DNA of 52,753 bases. It comes from a virus (taxonomy: Duplodnaviria > Caudoviricetes). The notes under the pieces were generated by a model, which was given only the letters and a program-made list of their open reading frames with translations, did not search any database and was not told the origin of the DNA. Position numbers and translations under genes: made by a program. Positions 5,448-14,542 of the stretch are shown piece after piece (position 1 is the stretch's first letter; each line of letters starts with the position of its first letter). The DNA lies in the IMG/VR virus record IMGVR_UViG_3300028920_000086, positions 1-52,753 of that record, one strand, 5' to 3'.

Positions 5448-8400
5448 TTAATTATCATTTAAATTAAACCATTTTCTATTATCAAATTCTTTTTTTCTTT
5501 CTTTTGAATATGCCTGTCTTGGCACTAAATATCCTATGATTCTCGAAACTTCGTCAGTTTTTTTGCCTCCACACATTGGACAAATATCACCATGAAAGCC
5601 ATGTTCATTTTTACAAACTGAAATTTTACCATTATAAGCAAAGTATATAACACCTGAGCCAGCTATTTGTTTCAATAGTTTCCATGATTGTTCTTCATTA
5701 TTAAATTGTCCTTCAATATTAAAATGTGAAATTTGTCCACCTCCACATTGTTTGTCAAGCATAGAACCTAATCTTATTTTTTCTTCCATTGTACATTTTT
5801 CTATTAATGGAATCCATTGATTTGAATATACATAATCTTTTGTTTTAGGATTATTAATTATATTATCTTTTTGAGCAAGGGCTACATTAGCTTTTTCTGC
5901 AGGAATACACTCTACATTTAAACTATACTCTACTTTTGATGCATATTCATCTTTTAATGTATTAATAGTTTCCAGAATTTTAGAAGCAAACTCTATTCCT
6001 TTTTTAGAATACGATTTATATCCAATTTCGTCAGTTTTTATATACCCAAAATCTCTAATAGTTTCATACATTGCAGTAATACCTATAGTATTAAATTGTT
6101 TATTTAAATCAATTAATTTATAAGAATAATTAGGCAAAAGTCCTTTTTCTATATTTCTTTTAATTATAATTCTTATAACATGTAAAACATCCATACAAAG
6201 TTTTATTTTTTCTTTAAGTATTTCTATATATTTATCTTCATCTTGTGTTTCTAAAGCTATTTTTCGTAAATTAATAGTATTAACTTGTACAGAACCAACA
6301 GATAAAGAAGTCCCCCCAATTGAATTAATAAAAGGCTGTAATTTTGATGTATCAGATAATAATCTACAATTATGAGTATATAAACCATTTTTTAAAACAA
6401 AATAAGGATTACATTGATTATACATTGTAAAACAGTACATATGAGCATCTGGTATTTTTGTTTTATTAACTGATATAATAGGTACTCTATAATAATCTTC
6501 TATTTTTTGAAATAATAAGATAGCATCTGTATATTTTTCATTTAATGTTTTTATATCAAATAATAATTGATGTGTTTTATTCAAATCTACTGTTTTAACT
6601 TCTTTAATTTCTTTAGTAGTTATATCATATACAGGATGAATATGATTTTCACTAACACAAATTTTTTTAAAAAATTGTGGTTCTATATTATACATTTGTA
6701 TTTTAGGAATTTTAATTATTTTAGCTAATTGATAAGAATCTTTTGCTTTTACCAAATAATCAAAATCATTATTTTTTAATGACTGATTATATAATTTTTT
6801 AAAAGTAGTATTTGTTGGTATTTGTTTATCATTTAAATAAGTTACACTAGTATTGCCACTAAAACAACAATTACTTAATGTGGTAACATCTTCACCATTA
6901 TAAAAATTACTATCTAACCATTGCATATTATGTTTATTACACCATTTTGCAAACTTTTCATCAATAAATTTACCATTTTGAAACAATAAAGCATAACTTA
7001 ATACGGGAAAGGTCATCATACTTTGTTTTCTCTCTTCTGCAACTACTTCCATAAAAATTTTTTGATGCTCAATAATTTGATCAACATGTTCTATAATATT
7101 ATCTCCATTAGGAAATTTTTTATCTCCAAATAATTCAACTATATAATTACTATCCATAATAGATATATTAGTAAAAGCACAGTTACCAGAAACAAATAAT
7201 TTACCATTTCTTCGAAATATAACCACTCCATCTTCTGTAGTAGGACACCAAACTTTTCCCTTATATTGTTTTATAATTGGTTTTGTTACTTCATAATCAT
7301 TATTTTCTATTTTAACAAACCATGTTGTTTTATAAATTTTATTATTCATGTGTAGTTTTTTCGTAATTAATTCACATGATTTCCCACTTAATAAAGCTAA
7401 CACTTGTATTTGGTCTGCTAATGCTCGATTTTTACATTCAACCTTAGTTTCTTGATTTAAAAAACTATTTAATAATATTTTTGCTTCTGTTTTAGATAAA
7501 TTTAAAAACCATTCAGGTAATATTTCAAAACTTCTTATTTGTTTTAATATATTTTGACTACATTTTTCTAATATATGAAACTCTATAATATTATATTCAA
7601 TTCTATATTCAATAAAATTATATTGTAATTCATGTAATATTTTTAAAGTATTAACATAATCTAAATATTTTCCTGAAATAATTAATTCATTATTTTCAAA
7701 CCGACCATATCTATAAACCATTCCCATAAATTTTAATAAATTGGTTGATATTTTACTTATTTTATTTCTATTTTTTGCTGTTACTGGTATTTTAATTACT
7801 GATTCATTTATTAATTCTTTAGAAAGTTTAATATTTTGTCCTGTATCAGCTTCTTCGTCTTGATATACTACTCTGTGATTTGGAGTAACTAATTGATGTC
7901 CATATTCATGTATTTCTCCATCATGATCTTTAATTGTTAAATATTGAATGTTTTGCCTATTTAAAACACCTTCTTTAACGGTATATACTTCTTCCCCCAT
8001 ATTTAATTGATCATATTTTTTAAATCCATTTGGTGTTAAAATTTCGGTATCTTCTGTAACACATTCCGTTATTCTTAAAAACGGTTGGTTTAAATCCCAA
8101 ATTACTTTTTGAAATGATTGTCTGCGATAATATTCAGGATCTTTTAAATAAAAACCTTTTTTTACATCATTATACCAAAAATAATATGAGTAAATTAAAT
8201 AATTTGATAAGCCAACAGCACCGCTAGACCTATTACTAGCCCAACTTACAAATTGTAAAATGTGATCATTATATGTGGTTAAATGTTTAGGTGGATTGGT
8301 TTTATTTTTATTAACAAAAAACAATCCTTTGTAAGCCACATCTTCAATATCATATGAAAAACAATAGGGAACGAAACTAGCGTTATAACTATTATGTAGA

Positions 8401-8741
8401 TATCCTCCACCCTTCCATTCTTCTATTAGCCATTGTTTTGCCCTTTCTAATCCAAATTTTTTAGTAATTTCATAAAATATTTTATTAAATGATAATAATT
8501 TTAAATGTGGTTTTCGCATATCTACTAATAATGTATTAATATCTTTAGCTGATGAATTGGCATTGGCATCTATACTAGCATCTCCCACGGTTTCTGTATC
8601 TATAAAATTATCAATAAAATCTGTATAATTTAAATTTTCTTCATGAAAACCATTAATTCTTGTTATTTTTTCAGGGTATTGATTCATTAATGAGTTTAAA
8701 CAAGCTACAAACGGTTTATATAATTTAAGATTGAGATTCAA
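5448..8741 (-). CDS. nrdD: class III anaerobic ribonucleotide reductase with two inteins (~637 aa after splicing)
   Basis: PYC, spliced SNCCRL, C-terminal CPMC Zn site and RIIGYL glycyl-radical loop. Confidence 0.93.
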   Translation of the reverse strand: MNLNLKLYKPFVACLNSLMNQYPEKITRINGFHEENLNYTDFIDNFIDTETVGDASIDANANSSAKDINTLLVDMRKPHLKLLSFNKIFYEITKKFGLERAKQWLIEEWKGGGYLHNSYNASFVPYCFSYDIEDVAYKGLFFVNKNKTNPPKHLTTYNDHILQFVSWASNRSSGAVGLSNYLIYSYYFWYNDVKKGFYLKDPEYYRRQSFQKVIWDLNQPFLRITECVTEDTEILTPNGFKKYDQLNMGEEVYTVKEGVLNRQNIQYLTIKDHDGEIHEYGHQLVTPNHRVVYQDEEADTGQNIKLSKELINESVIKIPVTAKNRNKISKISTNLLKFMGMVYRYGRFENNELIISGKYLDYVNTLKILHELQYNFIEYRIEYNIIEFHILEKCSQNILKQIRSFEILPEWFLNLSKTEAKILLNSFLNQETKVECKNRALADQIQVLALLSGKSCELITKKLHMNNKIYKTTWFVKIENNDYEVTKPIIKQYKGKVWCPTTEDGVVIFRRNGKLFVSGNCAFTNISIMDSNYIVELFGDKKFPNGDNIIEHVDQIIEHQKIFMEVVAEERKQSMMTFPVLSYALLFQNGKFIDEKFAKWCNKHNMQWLDSNFYNGEDVTTLSNCCFSGNTSVTYLNDKQIPTNTTFKKLYNQSLKNNDFDYLVKAKDSYQLAKIIKIPKIQMYNIEPQFFKKICVSENHIHPVYDITTKEIKEVKTVDLNKTHQLLFDIKTLNEKYTDAILLFQKIEDYYRVPIISVNKTKIPDAHMYCFTMYNQCNPYFVLKNGLYTHNCRLLSDTSKLQPFINSIGGTSLSVGSVQVNTINLRKIALETQDEDKYIEILKEKIKLCMDVLHVIRIIIKRNIEKGLLPNYSYKLIDLNKQFNTIGITAMYETIRDFGYIKTDEIGYKSYSKKGIEFASKILETINTLKDEYASKVEYSLNVECIPAEKANVALAQKDNIINNPKTKDYVYSNQWIPLIEKCTMEEKIRLGSMLDKQCGGGQISHFNIEGQFNNEEQSWKLLKQIAGSGVIYFAYNGKISVCKNEHGFHGDICPMCGGKKTDEVSRIIGYLVPRQAYSKERKKEFDNRKWFNLNDN
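6369..6866 (-). mobile_element. mini-intein 2 in NrdD (166 aa)
   Basis: C/CFSGNTSV ... CVSENH (block B) ... GLYTHN/C. Confidence 0.88.
7182..8063 (-). mobile_element. intein 1 in NrdD (294 aa) with degenerate LAGLIDADG-like region
   Basis: E/CVTEDTEILT ... VTPNH ... VWCPTT ... VSGN/C. Confidence 0.88.
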
Positions 8742-12029: not shown

Positions 12030-12350
12030 TTAATATGAACAATCAATTTTCAATAACTTTACATCAGGATATTTTTCTTTTAATTTTTCTAGATTTAAAT
12101 AAATTGTTTCTTTATCTAATTCTAAAAAACTTTTATCGTTTATGTATTGATTTACACAGCTACAAAAATAGTTTGTTAAAATTCCTTTTTCACAGGCCTC
12201 TTGTTCTTCAAATAATTCAACTAATTTCTTTGGAGGAACAATTCCTGCTTCTTTACAGGCTTTATAGGCTTGATATTTTTTTTCTATTCCTTCTTTCGGG
12301 GTTACCCCCGTAATAAAAACCTCTACACTCATATTAATATTTCCCTTCAT
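12030..12350 (-). CDS. hypothetical phage protein
   Basis: ACKEAGIVPPK motif; follows promoter at 12371. Confidence 0.7.
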   Translation of the reverse strand: MKGNINMSVEVFITGVTPKEGIEKKYQAYKACKEAGIVPPKKLVELFEEQEACEKGILTNYFCSCVNQYINDKSFLELDKETIYLNLEKLKEKYPDVKLLKIDCSY

Positions 12351-12370
12351 TAAATATTTATTTTATTTTA

Positions 12371-12399
12371 ATTATAACATATTGTTTGTGCTCATACAA
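12371..12399 (-). promoter_or_regulatory. sigmaA-type promoter, TTGTAT class
   Basis: TTGTAT-17 nt-TATAAT with TG extension. Confidence 0.7.
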
Positions 12400-12424
12400 G
12401 ATTATTTTTTTTAATCTTTTATTT

Positions 12425-12700
12425 TTATTTATTATCATCTTTTTTAATTTTATAAGTAGTAATTTTACCTAAGCTAATTTTTTCCGCTTCTTTTTTGTTT
12501 TTACAGGGAATCTCTATTTGCTTAATTTCATTTTGATTATTTTCCATTTCAACTCCAACCCACCAGATTTTATATTTTTTATAGGGCTGTCTTAATATTT
12601 TTATAATTTTAAATTCATTTGCTGTTAATTCTAATTTTTCTTTAAATTTTAAAAAATCTTCTTCTGTTGTATTATCATTTTTTTCTTTTTTATTTTCCAC
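12425..12700 (-). CDS. hypothetical protein
   Basis: GTG start, AAGGAG SD. Confidence 0.7.
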   Translation of the reverse strand: MENKKEKNDNTTEEDFLKFKEKLELTANEFKIIKILRQPYKKYKIWWVGVEMENNQNEIKQIEIPCKNKKEAEKISLGKITTYKIKKDDNK

Positions 12701-12718
12701 TTTTTCTCCTTTATTATA

Positions 12719-12920
12719 TGGGGAAAGGAGGATTCGAACCTTTAGTTACTTATTATAACAAGTAAGTATTTTATCTTGTTACGTTGACAAGTATACTCTA
12801 CCCTGTTGCGTTGACAGTTTTTATTATAATTTTTCACTAATTATACAATTCTTTTTTATCTATTTTATATCGCCATATAACATTCAATAAAATTGTTTTA
12901 ACCAGTTAAACTATTCCCCC
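12719..12920 (-). ncRNA. tRNA-like RNA (Ser-UGA-like, long variable arm) with a 109-nt structured insert in the anticodon loop
   Basis: acceptor GGGGGAA/TTTCCCC-A; D arm GTTT-AACTGGTTA-AAAC; anticodon stem ATTTT/AAAAT; variable arm TTACTTGT/ATAAGTAA; T loop GGTTCGAATCC. Confidence 0.75.
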
Positions 12921-12928
12921 CATATTAT

Positions 12929-13354
12929 TTATTTTATATGTTTTTCAAACCAATTTTCTATTTTATTATATTTATATCCTATTTTTTCTAATCGTTTATA
13001 AATTTTATTTCGTCTTTCATTTGAACCTTTAATAATAATTAAAGAATTAGGATAACATACTTCATTTTCAAAAATTATTAAACATTTTTTTGCCCATAGC
13101 AATCCCTCTAAATTGTTATTGGTTTGTTGATTATATAGTTTAGAATATTCCATATTACTTAACCATTCTTTAATTTTTTTTCTTTTGTTAGTAATAATTA
13201 AAGAAACAAAATATCTATAATTATATTTTTTATTACCACTATAGCACTCAAAAAGCATATATGCTATTTTATTATTTTTTAATTTATATTGAGCATATTT
13301 ATCACAAAATTCTTCATCACTATCTAAAAAATTTATTGTTAAATTGTTAAACAT
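12929..13354 (-). CDS. hypothetical protein, possibly GNAT-like fold
   Basis: C-terminal NERRNKIYKRLEKIGY recalls the GNAT motif B; lies between the ligase and the tRNA-like RNA. Confidence 0.6.
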   Translation of the reverse strand: MFNNLTINFLDSDEEFCDKYAQYKLKNNKIAYMLFECYSGNKKYNYRYFVSLIITNKRKKIKEWLSNMEYSKLYNQQTNNNLEGLLWAKKCLIIFENEVCYPNSLIIIKGSNERRNKIYKRLEKIGYKYNKIENWFEKHIK

Positions 13355-13360
13355 AATTAA

Positions 13361-14542
13361 TTAAATGTCATATTTTAATAAAAATTTAGGTGATATACAT
13401 TTAAATGAAATATTATTATTATAATGTCTAAATACACACCCTTCTCTTAAAACATTAGGATTTAATAGAGATTTTTCAGTAACAAAATCACATAATTCAT
13501 CAATTGTTTCAGGTAATGTATAATTTTTAACTACTAAAGGACACCATTTAATTTCAGGATTATAGGCTTTTAAAATTGGAATAGCATATTGTGTTTCAGT
13601 TTTCATTGTACCAGTTTTAGTGTCACCGTTAACTAAATTAAAAAGATATAAATCATGTCCTTTTAATTTATATTTATTTCCCTGTATTCCTTCTCCTATT
13701 AATTCGCCCTGAACATAGGTAAAAATACTATGTCCTTCTTCTAATATATTATATAAATTACCATAATTTATTTTATCTAAGGTATATGTTTTTAATACTT
13801 CTTCTAAATTATATTTTTTAACAACTATCCAAAAATTTTCATTTTGATTAAATTTACGAAGATTTCTAGAACAAACTCCAAAATCAAATTCCAATAAAGA
13901 TTTATTTAAAATTTTATAAATATATTTTATAAATTTTGGTAATTTTTTTTCTTTTACTTCTATAAATGCAGTAAGAGAGCTACCATCTAATTTTTCTCTT
14001 ACTTCATAATTAATATCTTTTTGTTGAAAAATTTTTGAAAGATTTTGAATCCTTTCTTCATCTGTTTTAGTAACAAAATTAGGCCATGCTCTTCTTTCAT
14101 TTTTATGATTTCTATAATATATTTTTCTAAACAGCCAAAATTTACTTAGAAATTGTATAATTGGATTTTTCGGCTTTTTAGGAGTTGACATTTTAGGTGG
14201 ATTAATTTCATCAATATGCTTAACACCTATAATATTAGTTACATCATCACCCTCTTTATAATTACCCAGTGGTAATATAGATAATGGAAAACAAATACCC
14301 TGACTTAAAACTCCTGCCATTTTCATAGTTTTAATTTTATATTTCCTTTTTTCTAAAAATTCAAATTCTGGTTTTTGTGGTAATACAGAATCAATTTCTA
14401 TATAAATACATAAATCTCCAATTTTATATTCATTTTTTTGTACTATAACTTGCCATCCATCTATGAAAGCTAATTCTATTCTATCTCGATCTTCAATAGG
14501 AGATAAATTACTTATTTTTCTTATACTTGCTAATTTTCTCAA
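13361..14542 (-). CDS. ATP-dependent RNA ligase, Rnl5/DRB0094 family
   Basis: MRKLASIRKI N-terminal OB domain; EKLDGSS, QGELIG, REGCV, FKCIS motifs. Confidence 0.88.
   Translation of the reverse strand: MRKLASIRKISNLSPIEDRDRIELAFIDGWQVIVQKNEYKIGDLCIYIEIDSVLPQKPEFEFLEKRKYKIKTMKMAGVLSQGICFPLSILPLGNYKEGDDVTNIIGVKHIDEINPPKMSTPKKPKNPIIQFLSKFWLFRKIYYRNHKNERRAWPNFVTKTDEERIQNLSKIFQQKDINYEVREKLDGSSLTAFIEVKEKKLPKFIKYIYKILNKSLLEFDFGVCSRNLRKFNQNENFWIVVKKYNLEEVLKTYTLDKINYGNLYNILEEGHSIFTYVQGELIGEGIQGNKYKLKGHDLYLFNLVNGDTKTGTMKTETQYAIPILKAYNPEIKWCPLVVKNYTLPETIDELCDFVTEKSLLNPNVLREGCVFRHYNNNISFKCISPKFLLKYDI

What the first reader, a model, noticed from the sequence alone, without database searches (positions are those of the whole stretch)
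12719..12920. tRNA-shaped RNA whose anticodon loop opens into a 109-nt four-hairpin domain
Seen in sequence (minus strand): a complete class II tRNA frame. It has a 7-bp acceptor GGGGGAA/TTTCCCC with A73 and no encoded CCA, a canonical D arm, an anticodon stem ATTTT/AAAAT, an 8-bp variable arm and a GGTTCGAATCC T loop. The two halves are separated by 109 nt (12774-12882). Removing the insert after position 37 gives a 93-nt tRNA with loop AU-UGA-AU. That is a Ser(UGA) anticodon, which fits the long variable arm. Established: 37/38 is the canonical archaeal/eukaryal intron position, whereas known bacterial tRNA introns are self-splicing group I introns, typically much longer. Inference: either a protein-spliced tRNA intron in a phage, or an unspliced tRNA-mimic ncRNA with an accessory domain. 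Caveats: two A-C mismatches in the T stem, and A73 rather than the G73 of bacterial tRNA-Ser.
Basis: partly seen in the sequence, partly recalled or inferred. Interest (0 to 1): 0.9.

Follow-up and report, generated by a model that had tools for sequence, protein, structure and literature searches.

The report
Phage tRNA-like gene with big insert
A phage gene has every outer part of a transfer RNA but carries about 109 extra AT-rich bases where the anticodon loop should be; interrupted phage tRNAs like this have been reported before, and nobody yet knows whether or how they work.

Summary
On the minus strand, 12719-12920 is a complete tRNA frame split in the anticodon loop by about 107-109 nt. 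ARAGORN finds it only with introns allowed, and finds nothing in 20 shuffled windows. All 8 possible 109-nt excisions give a 93-nt sequence called a tRNA.

The amino-acid identity is not fixed. Depending on the junction it is Ser-UGA, Pro-UGG, Leu-UAG or Leu-AAG, and ARAGORN itself says Phe-GAA.

The "four-hairpin domain" is not special: the insert folds no better than shuffles (z -0.36). An equally good fold extends the anticodon stem into a ~19-bp rod.

It is not a group I intron and not an archaeal-type intron. There is no bulge-helix-bulge on the anticodon stem and no EndA in the window.

The window is a fragment of a 22% GC phage. The gene upstream but one is an Rnl5 nick-sealing RNA ligase, but that adjacency is not kept elsewhere.

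Two partial relatives exist in very distant phages, and neither has a clean anticodon loop. No RNA data exist.

Lak megaphages already have "enigmatic" tRNA introns, so this is a new member of a known, unexplained kind.

Best guess, at 0.4: an unspliced, non-decoding tRNA-like RNA. Rivals are a decaying pseudogene (0.3) and a spliced tRNA (0.25).

The parts
12719..12920 (-). Whole tRNA-like element, 202 nt. It fills the gap between two co-oriented ORFs.
   Evidence: ARAGORN with introns allowed; 0 calls in 20 shuffled windows; sequence read.
12914..12920 (-). Acceptor stem, 5' strand: GGGGGAA.
12895..12911 (-). D arm: GTTT-AACTGGTTA-AAAC. With the two bases before it, this 19-mer is identical in 23 other viral loci, most of them ordinary tRNAs.
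12889..12893 (-). Anticodon stem, 5' strand: ATTTT.
12882..12888 (-). Seven bases ATTGAAT that would form an anticodon loop (U33, UGA, A37) if the insert is removed at or after position 36. In the rod-like fold they are partly paired.
12774..12882 (-). Its true bounds are unknown, because 8 registers are equally possible.
12803..12817 (-). Hairpin CTGT-CAACGCA-ACAG, inside the first copy of a 27-nt tandem repeat.
12775..12791 (-). Hairpin CTTGT-CAACGTA-ACAAG, inside the second copy of the repeat. The repeat copy (12767-12789) runs on into the 3' strand of the anticodon stem. The region contains TAACAAGATA, which is shared with L007.
12768..12772 (-). Anticodon stem, 3' strand: AAAAT.
12744..12767 (-). 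Long arm in the variable region (8 bp, loop TATA). It contains GTTATAATAAG, which is shared with L007.
12727..12743 (-). T arm: AAAGG-TTCGAAT-CCTCC, with two A-C mismatches.
12719..12726 (-). Acceptor stem 3' strand TTTCCCC plus discriminator A. No CCA follows. The last 22 nt of the element are identical to the 3' end of a tRNA-like element in L002.
12929..13354 (-). 141-aa ORF between the ligase gene and the element. It matches no family. A GNAT-like fold is a weak lead only.
13361..14542 (-). Rnl5-type (DraRnl/NgrRnl-like) nick-sealing RNA ligase: N-terminal OB domain plus nucleotidyltransferase domain with KLDGSS.
12425..12700 (-). 91-aa ORF downstream. Its AAAGGAG ribosome-binding site (12706-12712) lies 7 nt after the end of the element.

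Best explanation
The element is a tRNA-derived, non-decoding tRNA-like RNA of a phage. It is not a tRNA that gets spliced.

Inferred mechanism:
- It is transcribed together with the flanking co-oriented genes.
- Its intact acceptor stem, D arm and T loop let the host's tRNA end-processing enzymes (RNase P at the 5' end; RNase Z or exonucleases at the 3' end) cut it out as a stable 202-nt RNA. This also separates the upstream and downstream messages.
- The anticodon arm is not a decoding arm. It continues into an irregular rod of about 19 bp capped by small hairpins, so the UGA triplet is partly paired.
- What the rod does is not known. The likeliest roles are a binding or decoy surface for a tRNA-directed host or phage protein, or simply a processing signal.

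Shown: the tRNA frame, the insert, the rod-like pairing, and the partial relatives.
Inferred: transcription, end processing, the absence of splicing, and any decoy role.
For: 1. The frame is real, but it fails as an ordinary tRNA. ARAGORN finds it only with introns allowed. The Rfam tRNA model does not report it even at E<=10. Two of the five T-stem pairs are A-C.

2. No known way of removing the insert fits.
- No Rfam intron or ribozyme family matches.
- No bulge-helix-bulge is anchored on the anticodon stem: none of the 21 loose hits lies there.
- PF01974, PF13671, PF01743 and PF01139 are not found in the window.

3. The ends of the insert pair with each other. There are 19 pairs between the first and last 30 nt of anticodon stem plus insert, against 5.3 +/- 6.0 in shuffles; 11 of 300 shuffles reach 19.

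4. The one relative that shares insert sequence is L007, in a 160-kb phage that shares only 4 of 79 ORFs with the window.
- It shows the same architecture: 20 such pairs against 7.9 +/- 7.0, with 17 of 300 shuffles reaching 20, and a 24-nt inverted repeat.
- ARAGORN does not call it at its default threshold. At -ps95 it calls it with a mismatched anticodon stem.

5. Likeness between the window and L007 is far above chance.
- Local alignment after the D arm scores 72, against 47.3 +/- 5.7 in shuffles; 0 of 300 reach it.
- The colinear words TAACAAGATA and GTTATAATAAG occur together in only 8 stretches of all IMG/VR, and L007 is one of them.
- Likeness kept between such distant phages argues for selection or transfer, and against neutral decay.

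6. L002 shares the last 22 nt plus the 3' flank. It is a tRNA-like fold (z -3.31) with an encoded CCA, and in its predicted fold the middle arm ends in a 3-nt loop, so it has no anticodon loop.

7. There is precedent for stable tRNA-like phage RNAs that are not tRNAs. T4 rnaC (species 1 RNA) is annotated in the T4 tRNA cluster. It folds with a T arm, a long hairpin and a long irregular arm, and it has no Rfam family.
Against: - There are no expression data at all. The only public run that holds the DNA is a DNA run that may be its source.
- The seven bases after the 5' strand of the anticodon stem (AUUGAAU) make a perfect loop with U33 and A37. Every 109-nt excision yields an ARAGORN-valid tRNA. 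This is what a true intron-bearing gene would look like.
- Lak megaphage tRNA inserts were read as introns by their authors.
- An RNA ligase gene lies 441 nt upstream.
- The rod-like pairing is only modestly above shuffles (11 of 300 and 17 of 300).
- The cloverleaf-constrained fold is 8.9 kcal/mol worse than the free minimum: -31.5 against -40.4. In that call my D-stem constraint was one base out of register.
- The family rests on two partial relatives.
- The T-stem mismatches and the tandem duplication fit decay as well as they fit a non-decoding function.
Confidence: 0.4

Rival explanations
1. Decaying tRNA pseudogene. A phage tRNA gene was hit by an insertion and a tandem duplication in the anticodon loop and is drifting towards the AT-rich background. 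No functional RNA is made.
For: - Two uncompensated A-C mismatches in the T stem. L002 has GGAGG where the window has AAAGG.
- The Rfam tRNA model does not report the locus.
- The insert is AT-rich and not stably folded (z -0.36).
- It holds a 27-nt tandem duplication at 78% identity, of the kind replication slippage makes.
- No other tRNA is called in the 52.7-kb window.
- The closest relative phage by DNA polymerase (G002) has 8 ordinary tRNAs and no such element.
Against: - The GC-rich acceptor stem, the D arm and the T loop are intact in a 22% GC genome.
- Exact 10- and 11-nt words inside and beside the insert are kept in a phage that shares only 4 of 79 ORFs at 21-37% identity. Neutral sequence would not survive that distance unless it was transferred recently.
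- The acceptor stems of the window and L007 differ at 4 of 7 pairs and stay fully paired, two of them by changes on both sides. This could also mean only that the frames come from two different tRNAs.
Confidence: 0.3
2. A true intron-bearing tRNA gene. The insert is cut out by an unidentified nuclease (host RNase III, or RNase P and Z, or a phage protein), the halves are joined, and the 93-nt product decodes Ser or Leu codons. This would be the same unexplained kind as the Lak megaphage tRNA introns.
For: - All 8 of 8 excisions give an ARAGORN-valid tRNA.
- The loop is canonical, with U33 and A37.
- An ATP-dependent RNA ligase gene lies 441 nt upstream on the same strand.
- There is precedent in Lak phages.
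- In 23 phage loci fetched here, 7 of 223 ARAGORN calls carry inserts of 14-207 nt at or near the anticodon loop. Two of these still pass the Rfam tRNA threshold.
- UCA makes up 27% of Ser codons in the window's ORFs, so a Ser-UGA tRNA would have work to do.
Against: - No endonuclease, kinase/phosphatase, RtcB or CCA-adding enzyme is found in the window. The contig is only about 37% complete, so this is weak.
- The ligase is of the Rnl5 type. By the abstracts seen, this type seals nicks in duplexes, not breaks in a single-stranded loop.
- The ligase adjacency is not conserved. The ligase-like ORF is about 10 kb from the element in G001. None is found in G006. No tRNA is annotated within 3 kb of the ligase in 3 of 3 cultured phages looked at, out of 333 records with a match. 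No tRNA lies beside it in L003 or L004.
- The relatives L007 and L002 lack a clean anticodon loop.
- The weak T stem would hamper recognition by the translation machinery (inference).
Confidence: 0.25
3. A classical intron: either a self-splicing group I intron, as in bacterial tRNA genes, or an archaeal/eukaryal bulge-helix-bulge intron cut by EndA.
For: The position in the anticodon loop. 37/38 is the canonical archaeal/eukaryal site, and 34/35 is the site of the cyanobacterial tRNA-Leu group I intron (the latter is recalled).
Against: - No Rfam intron family matches even at E<=10.
- 109 nt at about 20% GC is well below the size of known group I cores (recalled).
- No bulge-helix-bulge is anchored on the anticodon stem.
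- No PF01974 in the window.
- The downstream gene has a bacterial-type ribosome-binding site.
Confidence: 0.03

Closest known systems
tRNAs with 'enigmatic introns' in Lak megaphages (Devoto et al., bioRxiv 10.1101/356790 and Nat Microbiol 2019, PMC6784885; passages read)
   Same: A phage-encoded tRNA frame interrupted in the anticodon region. The genome is AT-rich. Bacterial tRNA settings do not find it, but intron-aware settings do. The insert fits no Rfam class. The mechanism is unknown.
   Different: There is no sequence likeness: blastn of the locus against the phage collection found nothing. The phage is much smaller (a 52.7-kb fragment, about 37% complete) and reads open under the standard code. 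Lak introns are identical across cohorts, and one looks like a tRNA itself. Here only two partial relatives exist, and the insert is not tRNA-like to ARAGORN. The Lak intron sequences are in supplementary tables that I could not see.
Phage T4 species 1 RNA (rnaC), a stable small RNA in the T4 tRNA cluster
   Same: A phage RNA of 139 nt with a tRNA-type T arm (GGTTCGAATCC), a long hairpin where the variable arm would be, and a long irregular arm instead of a decoding anticodon arm. It has no Rfam family. That its function is unknown is recalled.
   Different: T4 rnaC has no D arm in its predicted fold and only a short terminal stem. No sequence likeness was tested beyond the T loop. Membership cannot be claimed.
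Archaeal and eukaryal tRNA introns at 37/38 (bulge-helix-bulge, EndA, RtcB or Trl1)
   Same: The position of the insert, if the junction is placed at 37/38.
   Different: No bulge-helix-bulge. No EndA or RtcB in the window. The setting is bacterial, with an AAAGGAG ribosome-binding site.
Bacterial group I introns in tRNA genes
   Same: A bacterial or phage setting, and an insert in the anticodon loop.
   Different: No match to any Rfam intron model. The insert is far shorter than known group I cores (recalled).
Bacterial Y RNAs with a tRNA-like domain (YrlA, bound by the Ro60 orthologue Rsr) - recalled, not tested by sequence
   Same: A tRNA-like module joined to a long helix.
   Different: The topology is permuted. 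In YrlA the ends lie in the long helix (recalled), whereas here they lie in the acceptor stem. No TROVE/Ro domain is found in the window, and no Rfam match.

Membership tests
Canonical tRNA (Rfam RF00005) | Score at or above the gathering threshold of the tRNA covariance model | tested here: not met
   No match at the gathering threshold, and none at E<=10 in an 851-nt search. Two other insert-bearing phage tRNAs (L006, L020) do pass.
Canonical tRNA (ARAGORN) | A cloverleaf with conserved D and T loop bases at the default threshold | tested here: inconclusive
   Not found without introns. Found with introns allowed. All 8 of 8 excised forms are called tRNA. 0 calls in 20 shuffles.
Bacterial tRNA-Ser | G73 discriminator (recalled identity rule) | tested here: not met
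   The discriminator is A, at 12719.
Bacterial tRNA-Ser | Long variable arm | tested here: met
   An 8-bp arm at 12744-12767.
Bacterial tRNA-Ser | A Ser anticodon | tested here: inconclusive
   UGA in 3 of 8 junction registers. The others give UGG, UAG and AAG. ARAGORN's intron reading gives GAA.
Archaeal/eukaryal protein-spliced tRNA intron | A bulge-helix-bulge motif at the exon-intron junctions | tested here: not met
   A script scan found 21 loose motifs in the 202 nt. None has its outer helix on the anticodon stem.
Archaeal/eukaryal protein-spliced tRNA intron | A splicing endonuclease (PF01974) available | tested here: not met
   0 matches at E<=1 in the window, while the controls ring in archaea. 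The contig is about 37% complete and the host is unknown, so absence is not proven.
Group I intron in a tRNA gene | A match to the group I covariance model and a core of P3-P9 helices | tested here: not met
   No intron family reported at E<=10, apart from a chance 21-bit hit to a plastid group II fragment on the opposite strand.
Phage tRNA genes with enigmatic inserts (Lak-type) | A phage-encoded tRNA frame interrupted in the anticodon region by a sequence with no Rfam class | tested here: met
Phage tRNA genes with enigmatic inserts (Lak-type) | Insert conserved among related phages | tested here: inconclusive
   One distant relative (L007) shares the 3' end of the insert. The nearest phage by polymerase (G002) has no such element.
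Phage tRNA genes with enigmatic inserts (Lak-type) | Removal of the insert from the RNA | not testable with these tools
   No RNA run holds the locus.
Rnl5 nick-sealing RNA ligase (the neighbouring gene 13361-14542) | An N-terminal OB module plus a nucleotidyltransferase domain with the lysine motif KxDG | tested here: met
   PF21189 plus PF09414. NgrRnl 5cot at E 2.3e-39, with KLDGSS aligned. Family properties come from the abstracts.

The most novel reading that the evidence does not exclude
The window element, L007 and L002 are members of an undescribed family of phage tRNA-like RNAs. They keep the acceptor stem and T loop (the window and L007 also the D arm). This would let them enter host tRNA processing, and perhaps CCA addition or charging.

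Their anticodon arm has been rebuilt into a rod of about 20 bp. In the window the rod ends in two tandem stem-loops whose 7-nt loops, CAACGCA and CAACGUA, carry ACG at the anticodon positions.

Such an RNA could act as a decoy or sponge for a tRNA-directed host defence nuclease or a modification enzyme. Alternatively it could be the substrate of a phage cut-and-seal pathway that uses the neighbouring nick-sealing ligase on the rod.
Probability: 0.12. Interest if true: 0.75.

Novelty: new member of a known kind. Interest (0 to 1): 0.45.

Why it matters
Interrupted tRNA genes in phages have been on record since the Lak megaphage work, with no mechanism. Bacteria are not known to have a protein-based tRNA splicing pathway.

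This locus adds three things:
- An example from a quite different, much smaller and even more AT-rich phage.
- The ends of the insert pair into a rod. This is also seen in its one relative that shares insert sequence, and by eye in the folds of other insert-bearing phage tRNAs.
- Pieces of the element are shared by phages that have almost no genes in common.

If such RNAs are spliced, bacteria or their phages have an undescribed tRNA splicing route. If they are not spliced, phages carry a class of tRNA mimics whose targets are unknown, possibly tRNA-directed defence systems. Either answer could be reached with one small-RNA experiment on a cloned locus.

Tried and rejected
Public sequencing runs:
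- Five tries did not complete (include the unanswered ones). The sixth listed one DNA run, a marine sediment metagenome that may be the source. No RNA holder is listed.
- Laying that run gave one contig identical over 12300-13400, with no joints and no insert-less variant.

Relatives by protein:
- RNA ligase: 3 viral loci at 34-47% identity, none with an interrupted tRNA.
- DNA polymerase: 1 locus. Its whole record, G002, has 8 plain tRNAs and no relative of the element.

Relatives by DNA pattern:
- The 22-nt 3' end: 1 locus, L002.
- The D arm: 23 loci, of which only L007 is related.
- Two-word pattern in viral contigs: 8 loci, of which only L007 is related.
- Three-part pattern in metagenome contigs: 1 contig. 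By eye it is the same sequence as L007.
- GTTATAATAAG plus a T loop: 26 loci. None is related except L007. Several are cores of what look like group I introns.
- Two-word pattern in prokaryote genomes: 8 loci, none tRNA-like.

blastn against cultured phages:
- Whole locus: no match.
- 3' half: best E 0.1.
- 5' half: best listed E 2.

Other tests that led nowhere:
- Promoter scan: 21 sites against 16.5 +/- 4.3 expected, so not enriched.
- The repeated hairpin motif occurs nowhere else in the window: 2 matches against 1.04 expected.
- Neighbouring ORFs have no Pfam or PHROG family. The Atlas gives only a weak GNAT-like lead for the 141-aa ORF.
- L002 and the window are not significantly alike upstream of the T loop: 30.5 against 30.8 +/- 5.1. 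I therefore dropped the idea that the window's weak T stem arose by a deletion between AGGTT repeats.
- The window part was anchored on the wrong AAAAU. It was discarded and redone.
- MAFFT and global alignments of the window with L007 are unreliable in the 5' part of the insert.

Literature:
- The searches turned up only the Lak papers on non-group-I phage tRNA introns.
- One search found nothing on T4 species 1 RNA.
- The supplementary tables of the Lak papers, which hold the intron sequences, could not be seen.
Full report
WHAT IS THERE

The window is a 52,753-nt IMG/VR virus record, estimated to be 37% complete, with 22.4% G+C. Of its 70 ORFs of at least 90 aa, 62 lie on the minus strand. 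They include an anaerobic ribonucleotide reductase, a large DNA polymerase, RecJ-like and exonuclease V-like proteins and a DnaB-like helicase. The downstream gene has an AAAGGAG ribosome-binding site. It is a fragment of a phage of a bacterium.

- acceptor stem GGGGGAA/TTTCCCC, with one G-U pair;
- U8 and A9;
- D arm GTTT-AACTGGTTA-AAAC;
- A26;
- anticodon stem ATTTT/AAAAT;
- a long arm in the variable region, 8 bp in the constrained fold;
- T arm AAAGG-TTCGAAT-CCTCC, with two A-C mismatches;
- discriminator A, and no CCA.

About 107-109 nt lie between the two strands of the anticodon stem beyond a normal 7-nt loop.

IS IT MORE THAN CHANCE?

Yes.
- ARAGORN in its default mode finds no tRNA in the window.
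- With introns allowed, at the default threshold, it finds exactly one, and it is this locus.
- It finds none in 20 dinucleotide shuffles of the whole window.
- Cutting out 109 nt in each of the 8 possible registers gives a 93-nt sequence that ARAGORN calls a tRNA every time.

As it stands, though, the locus is not an ordinary tRNA. Rfam reports nothing at gathering thresholds. In a permissive search of 12400-13250 it gives four chance-level matches and no tRNA.

1. Identity.
- The eight registers give Ser-UGA three times, Pro-UGG once, Leu-UAG once and Leu-AAG three times.
- ARAGORN's own intron reading is Phe-GAA, with the stem shifted by one base and a 107-nt intron.
- A73 speaks against bacterial Ser (a recalled identity rule).
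- The 19-nt D-arm word is shared with 23 other viral loci, most of them ordinary tRNAs with short variable loops. The long arm may therefore be a second insertion rather than a class II feature.

2. The four-hairpin domain.
- The hairpins can be drawn, but the insert alone folds no better than shuffles (z -0.36; 64 of 200 shuffles fold at least as well).
- The best fold of anticodon stem plus insert uses two of them differently. The anticodon stem runs on for 8+6+5 pairs, and only two small hairpins and a third short one remain at the tip.
- This closing of the insert on itself is modestly above chance: 19 pairs between the first and last 30 nt, against 5.3 +/- 6.0 in shuffles, with 11 of 300 reaching 19.
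- The insert also holds a 27-nt tandem repeat at 78% identity. Each copy carries a stem-loop, with loops CAACGCA and CAACGTA. The second copy runs into the 3' strand of the anticodon stem.

WHAT IT IS NOT

- No Rfam intron or ribozyme family matches.
- A script scan for bulge-helix-bulge motifs found 21 loose ones in this AT-rich RNA. None has its outer helix on the anticodon stem.
- The window has no match to the tRNA-intron endonuclease domain, to an AAA_33 kinase domain, to the CCA-adding enzyme family, to RtcB or to the Ro/TROVE domain. The contig is incomplete, so these absences are weak.

THE SURROUNDINGS

The element exactly fills a 228-nt gap between two co-oriented ORFs. The stop codon of the upstream ORF ends 8 nt before G1, and the ribosome-binding site of the downstream ORF starts 7 nt after A73.

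Upstream lie a 141-aa ORF with no family (a GNAT-like fold is only a lead) and then a 393-aa RNA ligase. This ligase has the PHA02142 OB domain plus the RNA_ligase domain. It matches Naegleria gruberi RNA ligase at E 2.3e-39, with the KLDGSS motif aligned. That places it in the Rnl5 family, which according to the abstracts seen seals 3'-OH/5'-PO4 nicks in duplexes and has no known physiological role.

The adjacency is tempting, but it is not kept elsewhere:
- In G001 the ligase-like ORF is about 10 kb from the related element.
- G006 has no such ligase.
- The three viral loci with the nearest ligases have no interrupted tRNA.
- In 3 of 3 cultured phages that I looked at, out of 333 records with a match, no tRNA is annotated within 3 kb of the ligase.

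A duplex nick-sealing enzyme is also not the obvious tool for a break in a single-stranded loop. This last point is an inference.

RELATIVES

The lineage is thinly sampled. The polymerase finds one viral contig at 41% identity. Its record has 8 plain tRNAs and no relative of the element.

Pattern scans gave two partial relatives.

1. L007
- It lies in a 160-kb phage record (G001, 30% G+C) that shares only 4 of 79 window ORFs at 21-37% identity.
- It has the same 19-nt D-arm word (this was the search criterion). In the same order it also has TAACAAGATA at the 3' end of its insert, GTTATAATAAG just after it, and the T loop.
- The alignment after the D arm scores 72, against 47.3 +/- 5.7 for shuffles; 0 of 300 reach it.
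- The two words together occur in only 8 stretches of all IMG/VR.
- Its insert is about 71-75 nt. The arm is a rod of 8+12 pairs: a 24-nt inverted repeat, and 20 closing pairs against 7.9 +/- 7.0, with 17 of 300 shuffles reaching 20.
- ARAGORN does not call it at the default threshold. At -ps95 it calls it Leu-AAG, with a mismatch in the anticodon stem and the intron at a different loop position.
- The shared word GTTATAATAAG is the variable arm in the window but the 3' strand of the anticodon stem in L007. The structure around conserved sequence has therefore been rebuilt.

2. L002
- It lies in a 59-kb phage record with no such ligase.
- It shares the last 22 nt of the element, and 9 of the next 10 flanking bases once its encoded CCA is skipped.
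- Its 104-nt element folds as acceptor stem, two odd arms and a perfect T arm (z -3.31). In the predicted fold the middle arm ends in a 3-nt loop.
- Upstream of the T loop it is not significantly like the window.

THE WIDER PICTURE

In the 23 D-arm loci, ARAGORN with introns allowed makes 223 tRNA calls, and 7 of them carry inserts of 14-207 nt at or near the anticodon loop. Two of those pass the Rfam tRNA threshold. In L020 and L026 the insert again folds as an extension of the anticodon stem.

Devoto and colleagues reported tRNAs with 'enigmatic introns' in Lak megaphages. These were found only with eukaryotic settings and, after being tested against Rfam, were still called enigmatic. The authors suggested that such tRNAs may be common in large phages (passages read). 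My searches found no later paper that explains them.

Phage T4 also has a stable tRNA-like RNA, rnaC, in its tRNA cluster. It has a T arm, a long hairpin and a long irregular arm, and it too has no Rfam family.

HOW IT MOST LIKELY WORKS

I put 0.40 on an unspliced, non-decoding tRNA-like RNA. It would be made as part of the operon transcript. Host tRNA end-processing enzymes would release it, which would also separate the two flanking messages. It would carry a rod instead of a decoding arm, and the partner of that rod is unknown. The reasons are:
- no removal mechanism can be found;
- the T stem is weak;
- the insert ends pair into a rod, here and in L007;
- both relatives lack a clean anticodon loop;
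- sequence words are kept between phages that share almost nothing else.

I put 0.30 on a decaying pseudogene. In its favour are the uncompensated T-stem mismatches, the slippage-type duplication, the unstable insert and the absence of the element from the nearest phage.

I put 0.25 on a true intron of the Lak kind. In its favour are the perfect loop, the valid tRNA after every excision, the nearby ligase and the precedent.

Classical group I or bulge-helix-bulge introns get 0.03.

No RNA data bear on any of this. The only public run holding the DNA is a DNA run from marine sediment that may be its source, and its contig shows no insert-less variant.

VERDICT

The thing belongs to an already reported but unexplained kind: phage tRNA genes with non-group-I inserts. 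It is a new member from a different phage lineage, with a hint of a shared rod-like architecture and of a small mosaic family. It is moderately interesting, and one small-RNA experiment on a cloned locus would decide between the three readings.

Noticed in passing
L002:2630-2733 (minus strand): A 104-nt tRNA-like element between co-oriented ORFs of a 59-kb phage. It has a 7-bp acceptor stem, a perfect T arm and an encoded CCA. In the predicted fold there is no D arm, and the middle arm ends in a 3-nt loop. ARAGORN calls nothing. Fold z -3.31. Its last 22 nt before the CCA are identical to the 3' end of the window element.
   Followed up: partly
L006:1105-1220, L018:3735-4016, L020:2069-2237, L024:8607-8735, L026:1228-1424; also L006:208-295 and L019:6287-6373: In 23 phage loci fetched by a D-arm word, 7 of 223 ARAGORN calls (introns allowed) carry inserts of 14-207 nt at or near the anticodon loop. 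In L020 and L026 the insert folds as an extension of the anticodon stem. The L026 insert holds a T-arm-like hairpin. No Rfam family other than tRNA was reported on L006, L018, L020, L024 or L026; L019 was not searched.
   Followed up: partly
L050, L053, L056, L062, L065 (and L047, L058, L066, L070), around the matches: These viral loci share a conserved stretch of the form ...aatccgcagccaag...GTTATAATAAGG...GGTTCAAcgact. It looks to me like the core of phage group I introns; this is recalled, not tested with Rfam. They matched my pattern by accident.
   Followed up: no
window 12724-12730 and 12706-12712 (minus strand): CUCCUUU, which spans the 3' strand of the T stem and the start of the 3' acceptor strand, is the exact complement of the downstream gene's ribosome-binding site AAAGGAG 11 nt later. 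If the tRNA-like fold does not form, the binding site could be masked. L002 and L007 show nothing comparable, by eye.
   Followed up: no
window 12775-12791 and 12803-12817 (minus strand): The two tandem stem-loops have 7-nt loops CAACGUA and CAACGCA, with ACG at the positions of an anticodon but A instead of U at position 33. They resemble anticodon stem-loops of tRNA-Arg(ACG); this comparison is recalled and not tested.
   Followed up: no
window 5448-8741 (minus strand): The anaerobic ribonucleotide reductase ORF is 1097 aa long and matches its PHROG in three separate stretches, so it may hold an insertion such as an intein.
   Followed up: no
window 12929-13354 (minus strand): The 141-aa ORF between the ligase gene and the element has no Pfam or PHROG family. 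The Atlas places it among phage hypothetical proteins, with a weak likeness to GNAT acetyltransferase folds (TM 0.56-0.61). This is a lead only.
   Followed up: partly
L072:1409-1547 (phage T4 rnaC): T4 species 1 RNA folds very stably (z -4.57) as a T arm plus a 10-bp hairpin plus a long irregular arm. Rfam gives only a 17.5-bit tRNA-Sec-like match, so this classic phage RNA has no curated family.
   Followed up: partly
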